DNA of 64,000 nucleotides from Escherichia coli (GTDB taxonomy: Bacteria > Pseudomonadota > Gammaproteobacteria > Enterobacterales > Enterobacteriaceae), in assembly GCF_009931435.1 (NCBI RefSeq), contig NZ_CP043414.1, one strand, 5' to 3'. Shown piece by piece: positions 5,850 to 47,342 of this stretch. Position 1 is the stretch's first letter, and each line of letters opens with the position of its first letter. A program made the translations under genes and the position numbers. The notes beneath the pieces are model-generated. The model did not search any database. It was not told the DNA's origin and was given only the letters and a program-made list of their open reading frames with translations.

Positions 5850-6116
5850 TCACATATCATCAGCTGTGTATCGCAACACGATTTCCAGTGTTTTTCTAAT
5901 CACATCAGCTTTGAGAATATCACTTGTTGTTTCCAGAGAGTGTATCAGACTTAAGATAATATTTTTATTATTAACATTATCGCCTGAAAGCATTAAATTG
6001 GTCACAGCCTGCCCTAACACAGCTGACTCTTCTTCTAACAAATTACCCGAACTGCGAAAGTAGCTTGATAACGCTTTATCAGTTATTGCATTATGAATTG
6101 TAGTATCTTCAAGCAT
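5850..6116 (-). CDS. ariR: AriR (YmgB), a regulator connector for biofilm and acid resistance
   Basis: 88 aa, [62 protein letters not shown]..., matching remembered AriR. Confidence 0.92.
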
Positions 6117-6144
6117 GGTAACCTCTCATCTTACTTATGAAATT

Positions 6145-6417
6145 TTAATGTATTCTGTTTATTTTCTTACCATTGAACATACTTTTATTGTCAGCTATCG
6201 CTGTTCTTCTGTTTGGCCCTCCTGTATCACTGTTGCTAAAATCACGAATTATGCTGTCAATTAAATCTCGTCGGAAAGCATTTTCCTCAGCCGATTTCAT
6301 TACGAGTAATTGCTTAATAAGAGTCTGCAACGAAAAATTTATCTTCATGCGTAATATCTGGAGCACCGCCTGGCCAGTAATTTCATGTTTTATACTTTCA
6401 TTATCAGATGTCTTCAT
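6145..6417 (-). CDS. ymgA: YmgA connector protein
   Basis: 90-aa ORF between ycgZ and ariR. Sequence and synteny match YmgA. Confidence 0.88.
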   Translation of the reverse strand: MKTSDNESIKHEITGQAVLQILRMKINFSLQTLIKQLLVMKSAEENAFRRDLIDSIIRDFSNSDTGGPNRRTAIADNKSMFNGKKINRIH

Positions 6418-6459
6418 AACGACTTCATAGTTAATCTGTCAAATAATCAGGCTGTCACA

Positions 6460-6696
6460 TTATTCAAAAAGCAACCCAATTAGTGAATTGTAGTGTTTCT
6501 GTTCCTCTTCCCCTGTCGCTTGCTCCAGTCGACAAAGAAGTTTGGTACAAAGCGACTTTCGACTCAGATTACGTCCATCTTTCAAAATTTCAGTCACAAT
6601 TTCCCCGAGGGTTTCCTGCTGAGTAGGCAAGTTAGCTTTTGCAAAGTAACGAGTAATTGCCCCCGCAGAATCTGAAATCACTGAATTTTGCTGCAT
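6460..6696 (-). CDS. ycgZ: YcgZ connector protein
   Basis: 78-aa ORF, first gene of the operon, divergent from bluF. Confidence 0.88.
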   Translation of the reverse strand: MQQNSVISDSAGAITRYFAKANLPTQQETLGEIVTEILKDGRNLSRKSLCTKLLCRLEQATGEEEQKHYNSLIGLLFE

Positions 6697-6751: not shown

Positions 6752-6771
6752 TTGTACGAAATATGTGTACA
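6752..6771. promoter_or_regulatory. Candidate BluR (MerR-type) operator in the ycgZ promoter region
   Basis: TTGTACg-N8-TGTACA lies about 55-75 nt upstream of the ycgZ start on the minus strand. The same TGTACA core recurs upstream of bluR and ycgX. Confidence 0.4.
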
Positions 6772-8425: not shown

Positions 8426-9157
8426 GTGGCTTATTACAGCATTGGTGATGTTGCTGAACGTTGCGGGATTAATCCTGTCACTCTCCGGGCCTGGCAACGC
8501 CGCTACGGTTTGTTAAAACCACAGCGCAGTGAAGGCGGACACCGACTCTTTGATGAAGAAGACATACAACGCATCGAAGAGATCAAGCGTTGGATAAGTA
8601 ATGGCGTCCCTGTAGGCAAAGTTAAAGCATTACTGGAAACCACCAGCCAGGATACGGAAGATGACTGGAGCCGCCTGCAAGAAGAGATGATGTCAATTCT
8701 TCGTATGGCTAATCCTGCCAAACTACGCGCGAGAATTATTTCACTGGGTCGAGAGTACCCGGTAGATCAATTGATTAATCATGTTTACCTTCCTGTTCGT
8801 CAGCGTCTCGTGCTTGATCACAACACCTCCCGCATTATGAGCAGTATATTTGACGGCGCATTAATTGAATACGCAGCAGCCTCACTTTTCGAAATGCGCC
8901 GTAAGCCCGGTAAAGAAGCCATTCTAATGGCGTGGAATGTTGAAGAGAGAGCACGATTGTGGCTGGAAGCATGGCGTTTATCATTGTCAGGATGGCATAT
9001 TTCTGTCCTTGCTGATCCCATTGAATCGCCGCGCCCGGAACTGTTCCCGACGCAAACATTGATTGTCTGGACAGGCATGGCACCAACGAGAAGGCAAAAC
9101 GAACTTTTACAACACTGGGGTGAGCAAGGTTATAACGTCATCTTTCATGCCCCCTAA
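8426..9157 (+). CDS. bluR: BluR (YcgE), a MerR-family repressor
   Basis: 243 aa with a GTG start. Mer[43 protein letters not shown]. Confidence 0.92.
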
Positions 9158-9378
9158 TTTCACCTTTATCCCGCCCCTTAGACAGAATCTTATAATCTGA
9201 ACCCACAACAGCGTTTGTACCGGAGCTGATCCGTTGCAAAATGCTCACCGGGAGAATTCAGGTAACCCCCCCTTTCACACTTTGTACATATCACAGCCAA
9301 AGGACAGACCAGCTTGAAGTGAGAAAACCGATCGTGCACACTACGCACTCTCACAACTAACAAAAGGTTATTATCCTG

Positions 9379-9783
9379 ATGGATCAGGTCGTTGTTTTTC
9401 AAAAGATGTTTGAAAAAGTGAGAAAAGAGCAAAACTTTTCCTGGTTTTATTCAGAGTTAAAACATCACCGTATTGTGCATTACATTTATTATCTGGCTAC
9501 GGATAACATCAGAATTATTACTCACGATGAAACAGTTTTGTTATTAAGAGGAAACCGTAGCCTGTTAAAAGTCAGTACAACCAAAAACCCAGGAAAAATT
9601 AAAGAGGCGGCATTGCTTCATATTTCTGGGAACTCTACATTTTGGGAGTATTGTACAACACTGGCAAGTGCTGGCGTTTTCCGCTGGGTAACCGATGTTA
9701 ATAACAACAAACGCGGCTACTACGCTATTGATAATACGCTGTTGTATGTTGAAGATGTGGAAAATAACAAGCCATTAATCTAG
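9379..9783 (+). CDS. ycgX: YcgX (DUF1398-type protein)
   Basis: 134 aa, MDQVVVFQKMFEKVRKEQNFSWFYSELKHHRI..., matching remembered YcgX. Confidence 0.85.
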   Translation: MDQVVVFQKMFEKVRKEQNFSWFYSELKHHRIVHYIYYLATDNIRIITHDETVLLLRGNRSLLKVSTTKNPGKIKEAALLHISGNSTFWEYCTTLASAGVFRWVTDVNNNKRGYYAIDNTLLYVEDVENNKPLI

Positions 9784-9947
9784 CAAAATTTTAACACATC
9801 AGAGATCTATCATAATTCAGTAAAATAACAAAATATTATCAGGAACGAGTTAACGCTGCTCATAACAGTCAAACCGATACTATAAAACCCAATAATTGAA
9901 ACCTTTTCATCATGTCAGTAAGATAGTCATCCTTATGATCTTTATAT

Positions 9948-9972
9948 AAAAAAGCCAACCATGGTGGTTGGC
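9948..9972 (-). terminator. Orphan intrinsic terminator on the minus strand
   Basis: gccaacca-tgg-tggttggc forms a perfect 8-bp stem. On the minus strand six U follow immediately (A-run 9948-9953 on the + strand). No minus-strand gene lies upstream for more than 1.7 kb. Confidence 0.55.
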
Positions 9973-10177
9973 AAAGTGGCACAAACCAGCATAAAAGCTA
10001 TGCTTTGTTTAAAAACCTTCTTTAAATTAAATATATATCGTCCTGACTAAACAGAACTAAAACGGAATGAATTATTTAATCATGTTACTAAATTTGATTT
10101 TGTTTAGCCTCTGTTGAGATCCCTTGTTTTAAATTTCATTTGGATAAAATTCTTAATTAAATCCTTGGGAGTCAATT

Positions 10178-10438
10178 ATGTCTATGCAAAGTCAAGGAAT
10201 GAACTTTGAAATGAACCTATACGCATATTTGAATAAATATGATAGTCGGCTTTCAGAAGAAAAACTTGCAATTGATAAGGCAGTTAGAGATTTATATCTT
10301 TGCAACGAACGCGTGGATAACAAGAGAATTATACTGAAATTGCTCTCATTTTTATCATCTGCTGATGACATTGTTGAAAAAGATATTATCAGGAATGCTT
10401 TGGAAGTGGTGCTTCTTTTTACATTAGACGATATTTAA
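10178..10438 (+). CDS. AriR/YmgB-family paralog (small connector-like protein)
   Basis: 86-aa ORF with GGGAG 6 nt upstream of the ATG. The C-terminal two thirds align by eye with AriR: RVDNKRIILKLLSFLSSADDIVEKDIIRNALEVVLLFTLDDI against [42 protein letters not shown]. Confidence 0.75.
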   Translation: MSMQSQGMNFEMNLYAYLNKYDSRLSEEKLAIDKAVRDLYLCNERVDNKRIILKLLSFLSSADDIVEKDIIRNALEVVLLFTLDDI

Positions 10439-10686
10439 GTCATCTCAGGAGTTTTAATACACGAAGAGTGCCCGGATACTAGCGATTATATTCATATTTA
10501 ATTATGAGTGCGGGGAAAGAGATTATGCATTGGCATATTTCTCTAACGTCCGCGATAGAAAAACAACTTTAAATATAAATAAAGAACAAACCACCTTTGC
10601 ATTCAACCTCATCTGAGCTGACTATAGTACAAATTATATTGATATTCTTTATCAACATCATTGGAACAGAAGAATAAGGCGAAGAA

Positions 10687-11010
10687 ATGAAGTGTATAGT
10701 AATTGATACTGTAATACAACCTTCGTGTGGTATATATTTTTCAGTCATATGGAGCGATATAAAAATGATCATTTGGTATCGTTCAAATATCTTTCTCCCA
10801 CCTGGCAGCATATTTACAGTTATTAAGTCAGGTATTATACTCGAGGATAAAGAATATCCGATCAGTATTTTTAACGTGGCGCTATTCAACAAAAATTTAT
10901 GGAATTTAATCAAAAATAGTCAAGAGTGTCCTACAGAATCAAACAAAATTACGAATAAATGCCTGCATAAGCATTGCATTATGCAAATATGTCCACATGG
11001 TCTCAAGTAA
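10687..11010 (+). CDS. iraM: IraM (YcgW), an anti-adaptor that stabilises RpoS
   Basis: 107 aa, [22 protein letters not shown]...[21 protein letters not shown], a close match to remembered IraM. Confidence 0.88.
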
Positions 11011-11061: not shown

Positions 11062-11079
11062 GCCCCTTCGTAGAGGGGC
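11062..11079. terminator. Bidirectional-looking hairpin after iraM
   Basis: gcccct-tcgtag-aggggc. On the + strand a T-rich stretch follows a few nt later. On the minus strand AGTTTTT follows. Confidence 0.5.
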
Positions 11080-11744: not shown

Positions 11745-13202
11745 TCAAGAACGCCAAAAAAATCCTGAAAATAGTATAATAACAGGGTAAATTTCAAGTC
11801 GACCAAGAATCATAGCAATACACATGAGATATTTTGCAATATCATTAAGAACACCGAATGAGGATGCGGTAGCCCCAAAACCCAGCCCCATATTATTAAT
11901 GCATGCAGCGACTGTCGCAAATGATGTAAGGAAATCATATCCCATACCGTTTAGCACCAGTATAAAAAACACTGTAAAGAAAGTATAAAGAAAAAAGAAA
12001 CTCCATACAGACCTCATTACGCGGTCTGTAACAATCTTCCCTCCTACATTTACACTAAGCAATGCTCTGGGATGAGAAAGCTGATTTATTTCGTGTTTAC
12101 TTTGTTTAAAAAGTATAAGAAATCTAAGTGATTTAATTCCGCCGCACGTTGAGCCTATACATCCCCCAAAAAAACTTGACAGCAGCAAAAAAACTATCGT
12201 ATGTGTGGGCCAGTTTGAATAATCCTGCGTAGCTAAACCATTATCAGTGAGCATGGAGCTAGCAAGAAAAAACGAATGAACAACACTTCCAGTTAAGTCA
12301 TACATACCTATATGCCAGACCTGGAAAGAGGTAACAATGATAACACCTGAAGCTATTAACAAAAAGAAACGAAGTTCAACATCTCTGAGTAAGGGTTTTA
12401 TTGTTTTCCTGCTTATAACAACATACCAAAGAGTGAAGTTGAAAGCCGATAACAGAGAAAAAGAGCCCGCCACCAGTTCAATCAAATAATTATTGAAATA
12501 ACCGATACTCTCACTATGAGTTGAAAAACCGCCAAGAGAAACTGTAGAAAGTCCATGACAAATAGCATCAAACAACGGCATTCCTGCAAGTCGATAACAA
12601 ACAATACAAGCAATGCCTAATAAAGAATAAGTTATCCAAAGTGTCCGCGACGTATCAGCCAGGCGTGGAGTCAGTTTGTCATCCTTAAATGGTCCTGGCA
12701 TTTCTGACTGATAAAGTTTTGCACCACCAATACCCAATAATGGCAACACAGCAACTGCCAGAACAATAACCCCTAAACCGCCTATAAAATTTAATTGTGA
12801 CCGGTAGAACAAATATGCCCGAGATAATGAACTGACATCATCAATTACTGTTGCTCCTGTTGTTGTTATTCCGGAAACCCCTTCAAACAGCGCGTCAGCA
12901 AACGTTAAATTAAGCTCTGAATCAATCCATAATGGAAATGCGCTAATAATAGAAAATAAAATCCAAAACATTACAATTATAATAAACCCATCACGGGTGC
13001 GTAATTGAATGCCAGATTTTTTAGTGGTATACCACGCTCCGCCACCAATACAAAAAAATATAACAAAAGTAATAAAAAAAACGAACAAGCTTTTTTCTTT
13101 ATAAAACAATGCTACAACCATTGGTGGTAACATTGAAAGACTATAGAGCCAGACCAAGAACCCACACATATGAGTTACAACTCTTACATGAGATGTATTC
13201 AT
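11745..13202 (-). CDS. trkG: TrkH/TrkG-family K+ uptake channel subunit
   Basis: Polytopic membrane protein. 485 aa from MNTSHVRVVTHMCGFLVWLYSL..., which I remember as nearly identical to K-12 TrkG. The ORF track adds 6 codons, to 13220. The gene is visibly AT-rich compared with its neighbours. Confidence 0.85.
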   Translation of the reverse strand: MNTSHVRVVTHMCGFLVWLYSLSMLPPMVVALFYKEKSLFVFFITFVIFFCIGGGAWYTTKKSGIQLRTRDGFIIIVMFWILFSIISAFPLWIDSELNLTFADALFEGVSGITTTGATVIDDVSSLSRAYLFYRSQLNFIGGLGVIVLAVAVLPLLGIGGAKLYQSEMPGPFKDDKLTPRLADTSRTLWITYSLLGIACIVCYRLAGMPLFDAICHGLSTVSLGGFSTHSESIGYFNNYLIELVAGSFSLLSAFNFTLWYVVISRKTIKPLLRDVELRFFLLIASGVIIVTSFQVWHIGMYDLTGSVVHSFFLASSMLTDNGLATQDYSNWPTHTIVFLLLSSFFGGCIGSTCGGIKSLRFLILFKQSKHEINQLSHPRALLSVNVGGKIVTDRVMRSVWSFFFLYTFFTVFFILVLNGMGYDFLTSFATVAACINNMGLGFGATASSFGVLNDIAKYLMCIAMILGRLEIYPVIILFSGFFWRS

Positions 13203-13452
13203 ATCCAAATGTTCTTTCAATTATAACCACCTTACTGCAATGTCATGATTATACTGTATAAATTTTAACTCTTCTTAGATCTTACTTCACTGGTCCTTAT
13301 GAAACAATCAGCAAAATGAATCTTATTATAACACTGTTCGGTTATGTATTGTTGAGCCTTCCCGCTGGGCCTGCATCATTACAAGTCGCTCCCTATGGGG
13401 CTTTGTCGAATAAATAATTTTTCGGTAAGTGTCCCCTGAGCAGGTTGTATCT

Positions 13453-23716: not shown

Positions 23717-23733
23717 GGTTTATTTAATGTTTA
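23717..23733 (+). promoter_or_regulatory. PhoP box upstream of phoPQ
   Basis: GGTTTA-TTTAA-TGTTTA is an exact direct-repeat PhoP box ((T/G)GTTTA-N5-(T/G)GTTTA). It lies about 60-75 nt upstream of the phoP ATG. Confidence 0.8.
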
Positions 23734-23793
23734 CCCCCATAACGACATAATCGCGTTACACTATTTTAATAATTAAAACAGGGAGAATGAAAA

Positions 23794-24465
23794 ATGCGCG
23801 TACTGGTTGTTGAAGACAATGCGTTGTTACGTCACCATCTTAAAGTTCAGATTCAGGATGCTGGTCATCAGGTCGATGACGCAGAAGATGCCAAAGAAGC
23901 CGATTATTATCTCAATGAGCATTTACCGGATATTGCGATTGTCGATCTCGGTTTGCCTGACGAGGACGGTCTGTCACTGATTCGCCGCTGGCGTAGCAAT
24001 GATGTTTCACTGCCGATTCTGGTATTAACCGCCCGTGAAAGCTGGCAGGACAAAGTCGAAGTATTAAGTGCTGGCGCTGATGATTACGTGACTAAACCGT
24101 TTCATATTGAAGAGGTGATGGCGCGAATGCAGGCATTAATGCGGCGTAATAGCGGTCTGGCTTCACAGGTCATTTCGCTACCACCGTTTCAGGTTGATCT
24201 CTCCCGCCGTGAATTATCTATTAATGACGAAGTGATCAAACTGACCGCGTTCGAATACACCATTATGGAAACGTTGATACGCAATAATGGCAAAGTGGTC
24301 AGCAAAGATTCGTTAATGCTACAACTCTACCCGGATGCGGAGCTGCGGGAAAGCCATACCATTGATGTACTGATGGGACGTCTGCGCAAAAAAATTCAGG
24401 CACAATATCCGCAAGAAGTGATTACCACCGTTCGCGGCCAGGGCTATCTGTTCGAATTGCGCTGA
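23794..24465 (+). CDS. phoP: Response regulator PhoP
   Basis: 223 aa. Receiver domain (MRVLVVEDN...[11 protein letters not shown]) plus an OmpR-type winged helix. Confidence 0.97.
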
Positions 24466-47208: not shown

Positions 47209-47342
47209 TAGGCCTGATAAGACGCGAGCGGCGTCGCATCAGGCACATTGCCAGTGTCGGATGCGGCGTGAACGCCCTATCCGACCTACAGAATTTACAG
47301 AATCTGGAACGCATCAGGTATCAGCAAGGTTACCTGATGCGA
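47209..47342. repeat. REP/BIME cluster (three REP units)
   Basis: taggcctgataagacgcgagcggcgtcgcatcaggca; tgtcggatgcggcgtgaacgccctatccgacctac; cgcatcaggtatcagcaaggttacctgatgcg. Confidence 0.85.

What the first reader, a model, noticed from the sequence alone, without database searches (positions are those of the whole stretch)
10178..10438. A fourth AriR/YmgB-family small protein between ycgX and iraM
Seen in sequence: an 86-aa ORF with a good Shine-Dalgarno sequence (GGGAG, 6-nt spacing). Its C-terminal 60 residues align by eye with AriR at roughly 40 percent identity (NK.IIL.L...L....DI...D.IR..LE.VL..T.DD). AriR, YmgA and YcgZ are encoded 4 kb to the left.

Established knowledge: these small proteins are connectors that feed the BluF/BluR signal into the Rcs phosphorelay. 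The adjacent IraM is a small anti-adaptor connecting PhoPQ to RpoS stability.

Inference: this is an additional connector gene placed directly upstream of iraM, possibly co-regulated with it. I do not recall an annotated gene here in K-12.
Basis: partly seen in the sequence, partly recalled or inferred. Interest (0 to 1): 0.5.

Follow-up and report, generated by a model that had tools for sequence, protein, structure and literature searches.

The report
Rare AriR-like gene upstream of iraM
This is a real, intact gene for a small AriR/YmgB-type regulatory protein that a few E. coli strains carry just upstream of iraM; most strains, including K-12, have deleted it and kept only its start region joined to iraM.

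Summary
The 86-codon ORF at 10178-10438 (+) is real. It is a clear YmgB/AriR-family member: Pfam PF10798 at 51.6 bits (cutoff 22.3), 40% identity to AriR over 73 residues, and a model that superposes on PDB 2OXL at 0.7 Å. RefSeq already annotates it automatically in the strains that carry it, but I found no paper on it.

Only 29 of 5,426 complete E. coli genomes have it. They fall into two very divergent versions (74% protein identity, dS about 0.9, dN/dS 0.15), which shows purifying selection.

K-12 and at least 3,866 other genomes carry a 432-bp deletion. It removes codons 12-84 and the spacer, leaving a 22-codon remnant whose stop overlaps the iraM start.

A PhoP-box-like site lies 60 nt upstream of the ORF (TGTTTAGCCTCTGTTGA, then 12 nt, then TAAATT). 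It has the same geometry as the phoP promoter in this window. No terminator-like site separates the ORF from iraM.

Inference: an ancestral PhoP-driven two-gene unit, whose promoter became the K-12 iraM promoter. The protein's target (Rcs or SpoT) is untested. This is a new member of a known kind, of moderate interest.

The parts
10178..10438 (+). Coding sequence of the AriR/YmgB-family small protein ('ORF4'): 86 aa plus stop. The ATG shared by all versions of the gene is at 10184.
   Evidence: ORF list. Pfam PF10798 at 51.6 bits. 40% identity to AriR. PDB 2OXL at E=1.1e-10. Model against 2OXL: rmsd 0.7 Å, TM 0.96 normalised to the target. dN/dS 0.15 between the two versions.
10167..10171 (+). 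Shine-Dalgarno sequence GGGAG, 6 nt before ATG 10178
   Evidence: Read directly from the sequence.
10101..10117 (+). PhoP-box-like direct repeat TGTTTA-GCCTC-TGTTGA, placed where a -35 element would be
   Evidence: One mismatch to (T/G)GTTTA-N5-(T/G)GTTTA. The window holds 5 such sites against 1.1 expected. With the relaxed pattern, the only other hit is the box in the phoP promoter. Kept in hapB as TGTTTAATCTCTGTTGA and, weakened, in K-12 as TGTTTAACATCCATTGA. The block 10101-10130 is 87% identical between hapA and hapB, above its flanks.
10130..10135 (+). -10-like hexamer TAAATT, 12 nt after the box. The predicted transcription start is near 10142.
   Evidence: The phoP promoter in this window has the same 12-nt spacing between box and -10 (GGTTTATTTAATGTTTA, 12 nt, CATAAT). 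The hexamer is identical in hapA, hapB and K-12. The start site is inferred, not measured.
10048..10064 (-). Second, weaker PhoP-box-like site in inverted orientation (CGTTTTAGTTCTGTTTA)
   Evidence: Two mismatches to the consensus, read from the sequence (output). The K-12 counterpart is at L002 5204-5220. This is weak evidence. A paper states that the K-12 iraM promoter has two PhoP sites but gives no coordinates (PMC13529223).
10439..10686 (+). 248-nt spacer between ORF4 and iraM, with no terminator-like or promoter-like site on the + strand
   Evidence: Promoter and terminator scan. Fold z-score -1.9, unremarkable. It is the least conserved part of the locus between hapA and hapB, at 47-70%.
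10687..11010 (+). iraM, the anti-adaptor gene (107 aa), probably the second gene of the same transcript
   Evidence: NCBIfam NF007393 at 143.6 bits. RefSeq annotation.
11062..11079 (+). Terminator-like hairpin after iraM, the first one downstream of the ORF4 promoter on the + strand
   Evidence: Scan result.
10217..10653 (+). Segment missing from K-12-type genomes: ORF4 codons 12-84 (counted from the shared ATG at 10184) plus most of the spacer
   Evidence: Alignments of hapA, hapB and K-12. In hapB coordinates the gap is 432 bp (L005 5034-5465). The K-12 junction is colinear in at least 3,866 of 5,426 genomes.

Best explanation
ORF4 is a functional gene for a small helical protein of the YmgB/AriR family, and AriR is its nearest known relative. 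It is a rare accessory allele of the E. coli ycgX-iraM interval.

Most likely it is the first gene of a two-gene transcript, ORF4-iraM, started at a PhoP-activated promoter with a PhoP box at the -35 position. If so, conditions that activate PhoQ/PhoP (low Mg2+, mild acid, osmotic upshift) would produce two small protein regulators together. IraM blocks RssB and stabilises RpoS. The AriR-like protein would act by binding a partner, as AriR does when it activates the Rcs phosphorelay and switches SpoT towards ppGpp accumulation.

In the lineage leading to K-12 and most E. coli, a 432-bp deletion removed ORF4 codons 12-84 and the spacer. That placed iraM directly behind the ORF4 promoter, Shine-Dalgarno sequence and first 11 codons. 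These now form a 22-codon upstream ORF whose TGA overlaps the iraM ATG.

Shown here:
- the gene, its family and its predicted fold;
- purifying selection;
- its rarity;
- the deletion and the remnant;
- the PhoP-box-like site and its geometry.

Inferred:
- PhoP control and co-transcription;
- the protein's partner.
For: Family:
- Pfam PF10798 at 51.6 bits, cutoff 22.3. HapB scores 58.3 bits.
- 40% identity to AriR over 73 aa.
- PDB 2OXL at E=1.1e-10.
- AlphaFold model with pLDDT 83; Foldseek against 2OXL gives rmsd 0.7 Å over 61 columns and target-normalised TM 0.96.

Real gene:
- Two versions differ by dS 0.90 but dN 0.13, giving dN/dS 0.15.
- The ORF is intact in all eight loci read.
- AriR Arg74, needed for SpoT binding (PMC10704370), aligns with invariant Arg72.

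Distribution:
- 18 hapA plus 11 hapB genomes out of 5,426.
- Only E. coli entries appear in a 5.8-billion-protein search.
- The family forms one cluster among 1.84 billion representatives.

Deletion:
- K-12 ycgX and iraM are 99.5% and 96.6% identical to hapB but 81-89% identical to hapA. Both hapA and hapB carry the full gene, so K-12 lost it.
- The junction is shared by at least 3,866 genomes.

Regulation:
- The PhoP-box-like site has the same 12-nt spacing to its -10 as the phoP promoter in this window, and it is conserved across the versions.
- No + strand terminator-like site occurs before 11062.
- K-12 iraM is strongly PhoP-dependent (PMC13529223; PMC5740661; PMC10948607). After the deletion, the only upstream DNA within about 35 nt of iraM is ORF4's own leader.
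Against: - There are no expression data for any carrier strain. The transcription start, PhoP binding and read-through into iraM are all predicted.
- The papers that mapped the K-12 iraM promoter (Bougdour 2008, Battesti 2012) were not available. I therefore could not confirm that the box I name is the mapped PhoP site.
- In K-12 the second half-site is degenerate (CATTGA).
- The 248-nt spacer could hold a promoter or a Rho-dependent terminator that the simple scan cannot see.
- I first found the site with a pattern relaxed after looking at the sequence. The strict test still gives 1.1 chance sites per 64 kb.
- The protein is only 40% identical to AriR, so its partner may differ. The family's biochemical mechanism is itself unsettled.
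Confidence: 0.6

Rival explanations
1. ORF4 is a functional AriR-like gene but an independent transcription unit. It would be silenced by H-NS like other AT-rich acquired DNA and induced by something other than PhoP, while iraM in these strains has its own promoter in the 248-nt spacer. The PhoP-box-like site would be either coincidental or serve ORF4 only.
For: The region is AT-rich at 33% G+C, against about 50% in the nearby core genes. The spacer is long for an operon junction, at 248 nt. The scans only detect consensus sigma-70 promoters and intrinsic terminators. Literature titles found report H-NS repression of iraM in K-12.
Against: No promoter-like site lies in the spacer on the + strand, and no terminator-like site follows ORF4. 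The spacer is the least conserved part of the locus, whereas the box and -10 block upstream of ORF4 is conserved. In K-12 the PhoP-dependent iraM has lost all but about 32 nt of this spacer, so its PhoP control must come from DNA upstream of the ORF4 start.
Confidence: 0.25
2. ORF4 belongs to the BluF/BluR blue-light and cold module, like ycgZ-ymgA-ariR. BluR would repress it, and it would feed that signal into Rcs.
For: It lies 1 kb from bluR and 4 kb from ycgZ-ymgA-ariR, and it belongs to the same protein family as AriR.
Against: The motif footprinted for BluR (TGTAC...GTACA; PMC3509220) is present in the ycgZ promoter at 6753-6771. It is absent from the whole ycgX-ORF4 intergenic region. 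ORF4 is separated from the ymg operon by bluF, bluR and ycgX, and it faces away from that operon. The ycgX-iraM segment also has a different evolutionary history from bluR, with dS 0.5-0.9 against 0.05.
Confidence: 0.07
3. ORF4 is a decaying relic with no function. It would be intact in a few lineages merely because they have not yet lost it, as most E. coli have.
For: 99.5% of complete genomes lack it, so it is dispensable. A few truncated or frameshifted variants exist in the protein collection (P0017, P0021).
Against: dN/dS is 0.15 across a divergence of dS 0.9, the same range as the neighbouring genes iraM (0.17) and ycgX (0.10). 52 of 86 positions are invariant across ten variants, including the whole third helix. 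The start codon, stop codon and reading frame are kept in both versions.
Confidence: 0.05

Closest known systems
AriR (YmgB, b1166) of E. coli K-12; crystal structure PDB 2OXL
   Same: Same Pfam family (PF10798) and similar length (86 against 88 aa). 40% identity over the three-helix domain. The predicted fold superposes at 0.7 Å. The Arg that AriR needs to bind SpoT is conserved.
   Different: It is a separate gene at another position, between ycgX and iraM, and not in the ycgZ-ymgABC operon. It has no BluR motif upstream and a PhoP-box-like site instead. It is present in only about 0.5% of complete E. coli genomes. It is roughly equidistant from AriR-like proteins of many enterobacteria, at 55-59 bits, so it is not a recent copy of E. 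coli ariR.
YcgZ and YmgA, the other small proteins of the ycgZ-ymgABC operon
   Same: Small helical proteins in the same chromosomal neighbourhood. YcgZ reaches the Pfam YmgB cutoff only marginally, at 24.6 bits.
   Different: ORF4 shows no detectable pairwise similarity to YcgZ and only E=0.18 to YmgA. ORF4 is a much clearer YmgB-family member than either of them.
PhoP-activated small connector genes of E. coli: iraM itself, and by analogy SafA, MgrB and PmrD
   Same: A small protein encoded behind a PhoP-box-type promoter, likely to pass the PhoQ/PhoP state on to another regulatory system. It is physically linked to iraM.
   Different: PhoP control of ORF4 is predicted, not shown. The protein is unrelated in sequence to IraM, SafA, MgrB or PmrD.
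The K-12 iraM upstream region, with the small-protein genes ymgK and ymgL
   Same: It is homologous DNA. The K-12 sequence upstream of iraM aligns with the ORF4 promoter, Shine-Dalgarno sequence and first 11 codons. A ymgK homologue is also present in the window, with its ATG at 9961.
   Different: K-12 lacks 432 bp. It has only a 22-codon remnant, MQNQEINILMNHIKYRGIRHNK, which is not annotated in the K-12 record.

Membership tests
YmgB/AriR family (Pfam PF10798) | Match to the family profile above the curated gathering score, over the full domain | tested here: met
   51.6 bits against 22.3, E=8.7e-14, profile positions 2-59 of 59. HapB version: 58.3 bits.
YmgB/AriR family (Pfam PF10798) | Three-helix domain with the fold of the YmgB crystal structure (2OXL) | tested here: met
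   AlphaFold2 model with mean pLDDT 83, above 89 over residues 31-80. Foldseek against 2OXL_A: rmsd 0.7 Å over 61 columns, TM 0.96 normalised to the target, and the only PDB match with E<0.001. This is a prediction, not a solved structure.
YmgB/AriR family (Pfam PF10798) | Small protein of about 80-95 aa, with the domain at the C-terminus ending in (T/S)xDD(I/M/L) | tested here: met
   86 aa, ending in FTLDDI. AriR ends in YTADDM and other family representatives end in HTMDDI or YTNDDI.
YmgB/AriR family (Pfam PF10798) | Conserved surface arginine of helix 3 (AriR R74), required for SpoT binding | tested here: met
   AriR R74 aligns with ORF4 R72. R72 is invariant in ten ORF4 variants. The requirement comes from PMC10704370. 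Binding itself was not tested.
YmgB/AriR family (Pfam PF10798) | Homodimer formation; activation of the Rcs phosphorelay (mucoidy) or of SpoT-dependent ppGpp on overexpression | not testable with these tools
   This needs two-hybrid, reporter and nucleotide assays.
AriR orthologue (same gene as b1166) | Position in the ycgZ-ymgA-ariR-ymgC operon, and near-identity to AriR | tested here: not met
   The true ariR is present separately at 5850-6116 (minus strand) in the same window. ORF4 is only 40% identical to it and lies 4 kb away on the other strand. ORF4 is a paralogue, not an orthologue.
BluR regulon | BluR operator motif (TGTAC...GTACA) overlapping the promoter | tested here: not met
   Neither TGTAC nor GTACA occurs anywhere in 9784-10177. 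The motif pair is present in the ycgZ promoter at 6753-6771.
PhoP regulon (direct targets) | Direct repeat (T/G)GTTTA-N5-(T/G)GTTTA at or near the -35 position, about 12 nt upstream of a -10 hexamer | tested here: met
   TGTTTAGCCTCTGTTGA (1 mismatch), then 12 nt, then TAAATT. The phoP promoter in this window has the same geometry. This is sequence evidence only.
PhoP regulon (direct targets) | PhoP binding and PhoP-dependent transcription | not testable with these tools
   Published for K-12 iraM, whose upstream DNA is homologous. Never examined in a strain that carries ORF4.

The most novel reading that the evidence does not exclude
The well-studied PhoP-dependent promoter and leader of K-12 iraM would be a deletion scar. 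Ancestrally, PhoQ/PhoP drove a two-gene operon encoding two different small connectors: an AriR-like protein acting on Rcs and/or SpoT, and IraM acting on RssB/RpoS. Most E. coli then lost the first gene. What remains is a 22-codon upstream ORF with a strong Shine-Dalgarno sequence (GAGGGGGGGG), whose stop overlaps the iraM start and which may now set iraM translation by coupling. Rare carrier strains would then link Mg2+, acid and osmotic sensing to capsule, biofilm or ppGpp control in a way K-12 cannot.
Probability: 0.4. Interest if true: 0.55.

Novelty: new member of a known kind. Interest (0 to 1): 0.4.

Why it matters
IraM is a textbook link between PhoQ/PhoP and RpoS stability. AriR-type proteins are poorly understood small regulators of Rcs and SpoT.

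If the reading is right, three things follow:
- The K-12 iraM regulatory region gets an evolutionary origin, as the promoter and leader of a lost gene.
- An unannotated upstream ORF in K-12 is predicted to influence iraM translation.
- Natural strains are identified in which PhoP may also control an AriR-like protein. These offer a simple genetic handle on what this family does.

The gene is rare, small and dispensable. The impact is therefore on understanding regulatory evolution within E. coli rather than on a general principle.

Tried and rejected
Searches for the gene outside E. coli:
- A scan of one genome per bacterial species with ORF4 peptide patterns confirmed no relative.
- The same collection scanned with IraM gave six loci. 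The K-12-type loci (Shigella flexneri and E. coli) have the deletion. The E. albertii locus has an IraM homologue in another context, without ycgX, bluR or ORF4. No outgroup therefore helps to polarise the deletion, and polarity rests on the hapA/hapB/K-12 comparison.
- Phage records gave no match. Plasmid records gave only AriR-type genes below 40% identity. I rejected a mobile-element origin for lack of evidence.

Profile libraries:
- NCBIfam has no model for ORF4.
- Rfam found nothing near the locus.

Literature:
- Bougdour 2008, Battesti 2012 and Eguchi 2011 are not held.
- A full-text search for the K-12 box sequence found nothing relevant.
- No paper mentions an upstream ORF of iraM.

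Other checks:
- I looked for microhomology at the deletion junction in the alignment and saw no convincing repeat, so I make no claim about it.
- The precomputed PmrD family label for IraM was not reproduced with the local Pfam copy, so I did not use it.
- The BluR motif upstream of ORF4 is absent.

Full report
**Observation**

The window holds an ATG-initiated ORF at 10178..10438 on the + strand, encoding 86 aa plus a stop. GGGAG lies at 10167-10171, 6 nt upstream. The ORF lies between ycgX (9379-9783) and iraM (10687-11010). The genes ariR, ymgA and ycgZ are at 5850-6696 on the minus strand.

**Family**

- Pfam's YmgB/AriR model (PF10798) matches residues 28-85 over profile positions 2-59 of 59. 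The score is 51.6 bits against a gathering score of 22.3, E=8.7e-14.
- BLASTP against the window's own AriR gives 29/73 identities (40%), E=5e-17.
- YcgZ shows no detectable pairwise similarity, and YmgA only a chance-level one.
- The only solved structure found by sequence is YmgB, 2OXL (E=1.1e-10).
- An AlphaFold2 model has mean pLDDT 83, and above 89 across residues 31-80. It superposes on 2OXL_A at 0.7 Å over 61 columns, with TM 0.96 normalised to the target. No other PDB chain reaches E<0.001.
- AriR Arg74, whose substitution abolishes SpoT binding but not Rcs activation (PMC10704370), aligns with Arg72. Arg72 is invariant in all ORF4 variants.

Membership of the family is therefore established by sequence and predicted fold. 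Orthology to ariR is excluded, because the true ariR is present elsewhere in the same window.

**Existing annotation**

The window is 99.9% identical over this stretch to E. coli 2020CK-00188. There, RefSeq/PGAP annotates the ORF as 'biofilm development regulator YmgB/AriR family protein', WP_072004008.1. NCBIfam has no dedicated model. My literature searches found no paper about the gene.

**Distribution**

- A sensitive DNA search of 5,426 complete E. coli genomes finds the gene in 29.
- Of these, 18 carry the window's version (hapA, 96-100% identical). Eleven carry a second version (hapB, about 70% DNA identity, 84 aa, 74% protein identity).
- Both versions lie between ycgX and iraM.
- A search of 5.8 billion proteins returns only 19 clusters, and all the named ones are E. 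coli.
- In a library of 1.84 billion representatives, the gene forms a single full-length cluster. The next hits are AriR-like proteins of various enterobacteria at 55-59 bits, and E. coli AriR is no closer than the others. ORF4 is thus an old, distinct branch of the family rather than a recent copy of ariR.
- No relative was confirmed in one genome per bacterial species, in phages or on plasmids.

**Is it a working gene?**

- Between hapA and hapB, the 84 shared codons differ at dS 0.90 but dN 0.13, giving dN/dS 0.15. The neighbouring genes iraM and ycgX give 0.17 and 0.10.
- 52 of 86 positions are invariant in ten variants, including nearly all of helices 2 and 3.
- The frame, the conserved ATG and the stop are intact in all eight loci read.
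- One hapA strain has lost the first ATG (ATC) but keeps the second. The shared start is therefore 10184, and hapA may add two residues.
- A decaying relic is unlikely.

**What K-12 has instead**

K-12 annotates only the small-protein genes ymgL and ymgK between ycgX and iraM. Alignment shows the following:
- K-12 retains DNA homologous to the ORF4 upstream region, a Shine-Dalgarno-like G-run, and the first 11 codons (ATGCAAAATCAAGAAATAAACATCCTAATGAAC).
- It then lacks 432 bp relative to hapB (L005 5034-5465; window equivalent about 10217-10653).
- Alignment resumes 32 nt before the iraM ATG.
- The remnant reads MQNQEINILMNHIKYRGIRHNK*, and its TGA overlaps the iraM ATG.

K-12 ycgX and iraM are 99.5% and 96.6% identical to hapB, but only 89% and 81% identical to hapA. 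K-12-type and hapB therefore share a recent ancestor relative to hapA. Since both hapA and hapB hold the complete gene, the K-12 state is a deletion, not the ancestral state. The junction is colinear in at least 3,866 of 5,426 genomes, so the deletion is the majority allele. Other Escherichia species did not help. The E. albertii IraM homologue sits in a different context, without ORF4.

**Regulation (inference from sequence)**

- Sixty nt upstream of ATG 10178 lies TGTTTAGCCTCTGTTGA (10101-10117), one mismatch from the PhoP box (T/G)GTTTA-N5-(T/G)GTTTA.
- Allowing one mismatch, the window has 5 such sites against 1.1 expected.
- With the slightly relaxed pattern I first used, which I chose after seeing the site, the only other hit in 64 kb is the box in the phoP promoter at 23717-23733.
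- The geometry is the same at both sites. At phoP it is box, 12 nt, CATAAT. Here it is box, 12 nt, TAAATT (10130-10135).
- The box-spacer block is conserved between hapA and hapB, at 87% against 50-70% in the flanks. It persists in K-12 with a weakened second half-site, 147-163 nt upstream of iraM.
- A weaker inverted site lies about 50 nt further upstream.
- No promoter-like or terminator-like site lies on the + strand between ORF4 and iraM. The first terminator-like hairpin is after iraM, at 11062-11079.
- The spacer is the least conserved part of the locus, and its fold is unremarkable.
- K-12 iraM is among the most strongly PhoP-dependent genes, and its promoter is said to have two PhoP sites (PMC13529223). 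Only about 32 nt of the old spacer survive in K-12, so that control must reside in DNA that was originally the ORF4 promoter.
- The BluR operator motif from the ycgZ promoter (PMC3509220) is present at 6753-6771 and absent upstream of ORF4. A BluR link is not supported.

I could not obtain the papers that mapped the K-12 iraM promoter. The identity of my box with the mapped site is therefore unverified.

**Most likely mechanism**

PhoQ/PhoP activation transcribes ORF4 and iraM together. IraM stabilises RpoS. The AriR-like protein acts by protein-protein contact, with Rcs components and SpoT as the candidates by analogy.

My confidence by step:
- about 0.95 that this is a functional YmgB-family gene;
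- about 0.9 for the deletion history;
- about 0.55 for PhoP control and co-transcription;
- about 0.3 for any particular partner.

**Verdict**

The gene is a new, unstudied member of a known family, and it is already labelled automatically in RefSeq. The added value is the link to iraM: the K-12 iraM leader looks like the scar of this gene's loss. Interest is moderate.

Noticed in passing
window 9952-9981 (hairpin 9954-9972): The hairpin GCCAACCA-TGG-TGGTTGGC is followed by a T-run on the minus strand, which makes it terminator-like there. This 30-nt stretch is 97% identical between hapA and hapB although its flanks are about 70%. It overlaps the start of a ymgK homologue (ATG 9961, 29 codons here against 14 in K-12). 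K-12 does not keep the hairpin. Its role is unknown.
   Followed up: partly
window about 9790-9840, compared with L003 3485-4000: The window strain lacks about 436 bp between ycgX and the ORF4 upstream region. Other hapA strains, hapB and K-12 retain it, and in K-12 it holds the small-protein gene ymgL.
   Followed up: partly
window 8426-11010: There is a sharp change in divergence. bluR differs from K-12 at dS 0.04-0.06, whereas the adjacent ycgX, ORF4 and iraM differ at dS 0.5-0.9. This suggests an old recombination import or a long-maintained polymorphism with a breakpoint between bluR and ycgX. The whole 5.4-13.2 kb stretch has only 33-45% G+C.
   Followed up: partly
window 11745-13220 (minus strand) and beyond: trkG lies immediately downstream of iraM, followed by an IS5-family remnant and then icd. 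In K-12 the e14 prophage occupies this position and trkG is elsewhere.
   Followed up: no
K-12 genome 1,212,003-1,212,068, minus strand (L002 5004-5069): An unannotated 22-codon ORF (MQNQEINILMNHIKYRGIRHNK) follows a G-rich Shine-Dalgarno-like run. Its stop overlaps the iraM start codon (ATGA). It may couple translation to iraM.
   Followed up: partly
window 23717-23800: The phoP promoter box GGTTTATTTAATGTTTA, its -10 hexamer CATAAT and the phoP start (ATG 23794) lie in the same window, 13 kb from the ORF4/iraM locus.
   Followed up: yes
window 47211-47286 (minus strand): This is the only Rfam match in the window: naRNA4 (CssrE), 70.9 bits.
   Followed up: no
L005 5499-5822; window 10687-11010: The precomputed annotation lists Pfam PF11183 (PmrD) for IraM. 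The local Pfam copy gives no hit for IraM from hapA, hapB or K-12.
   Followed up: partly
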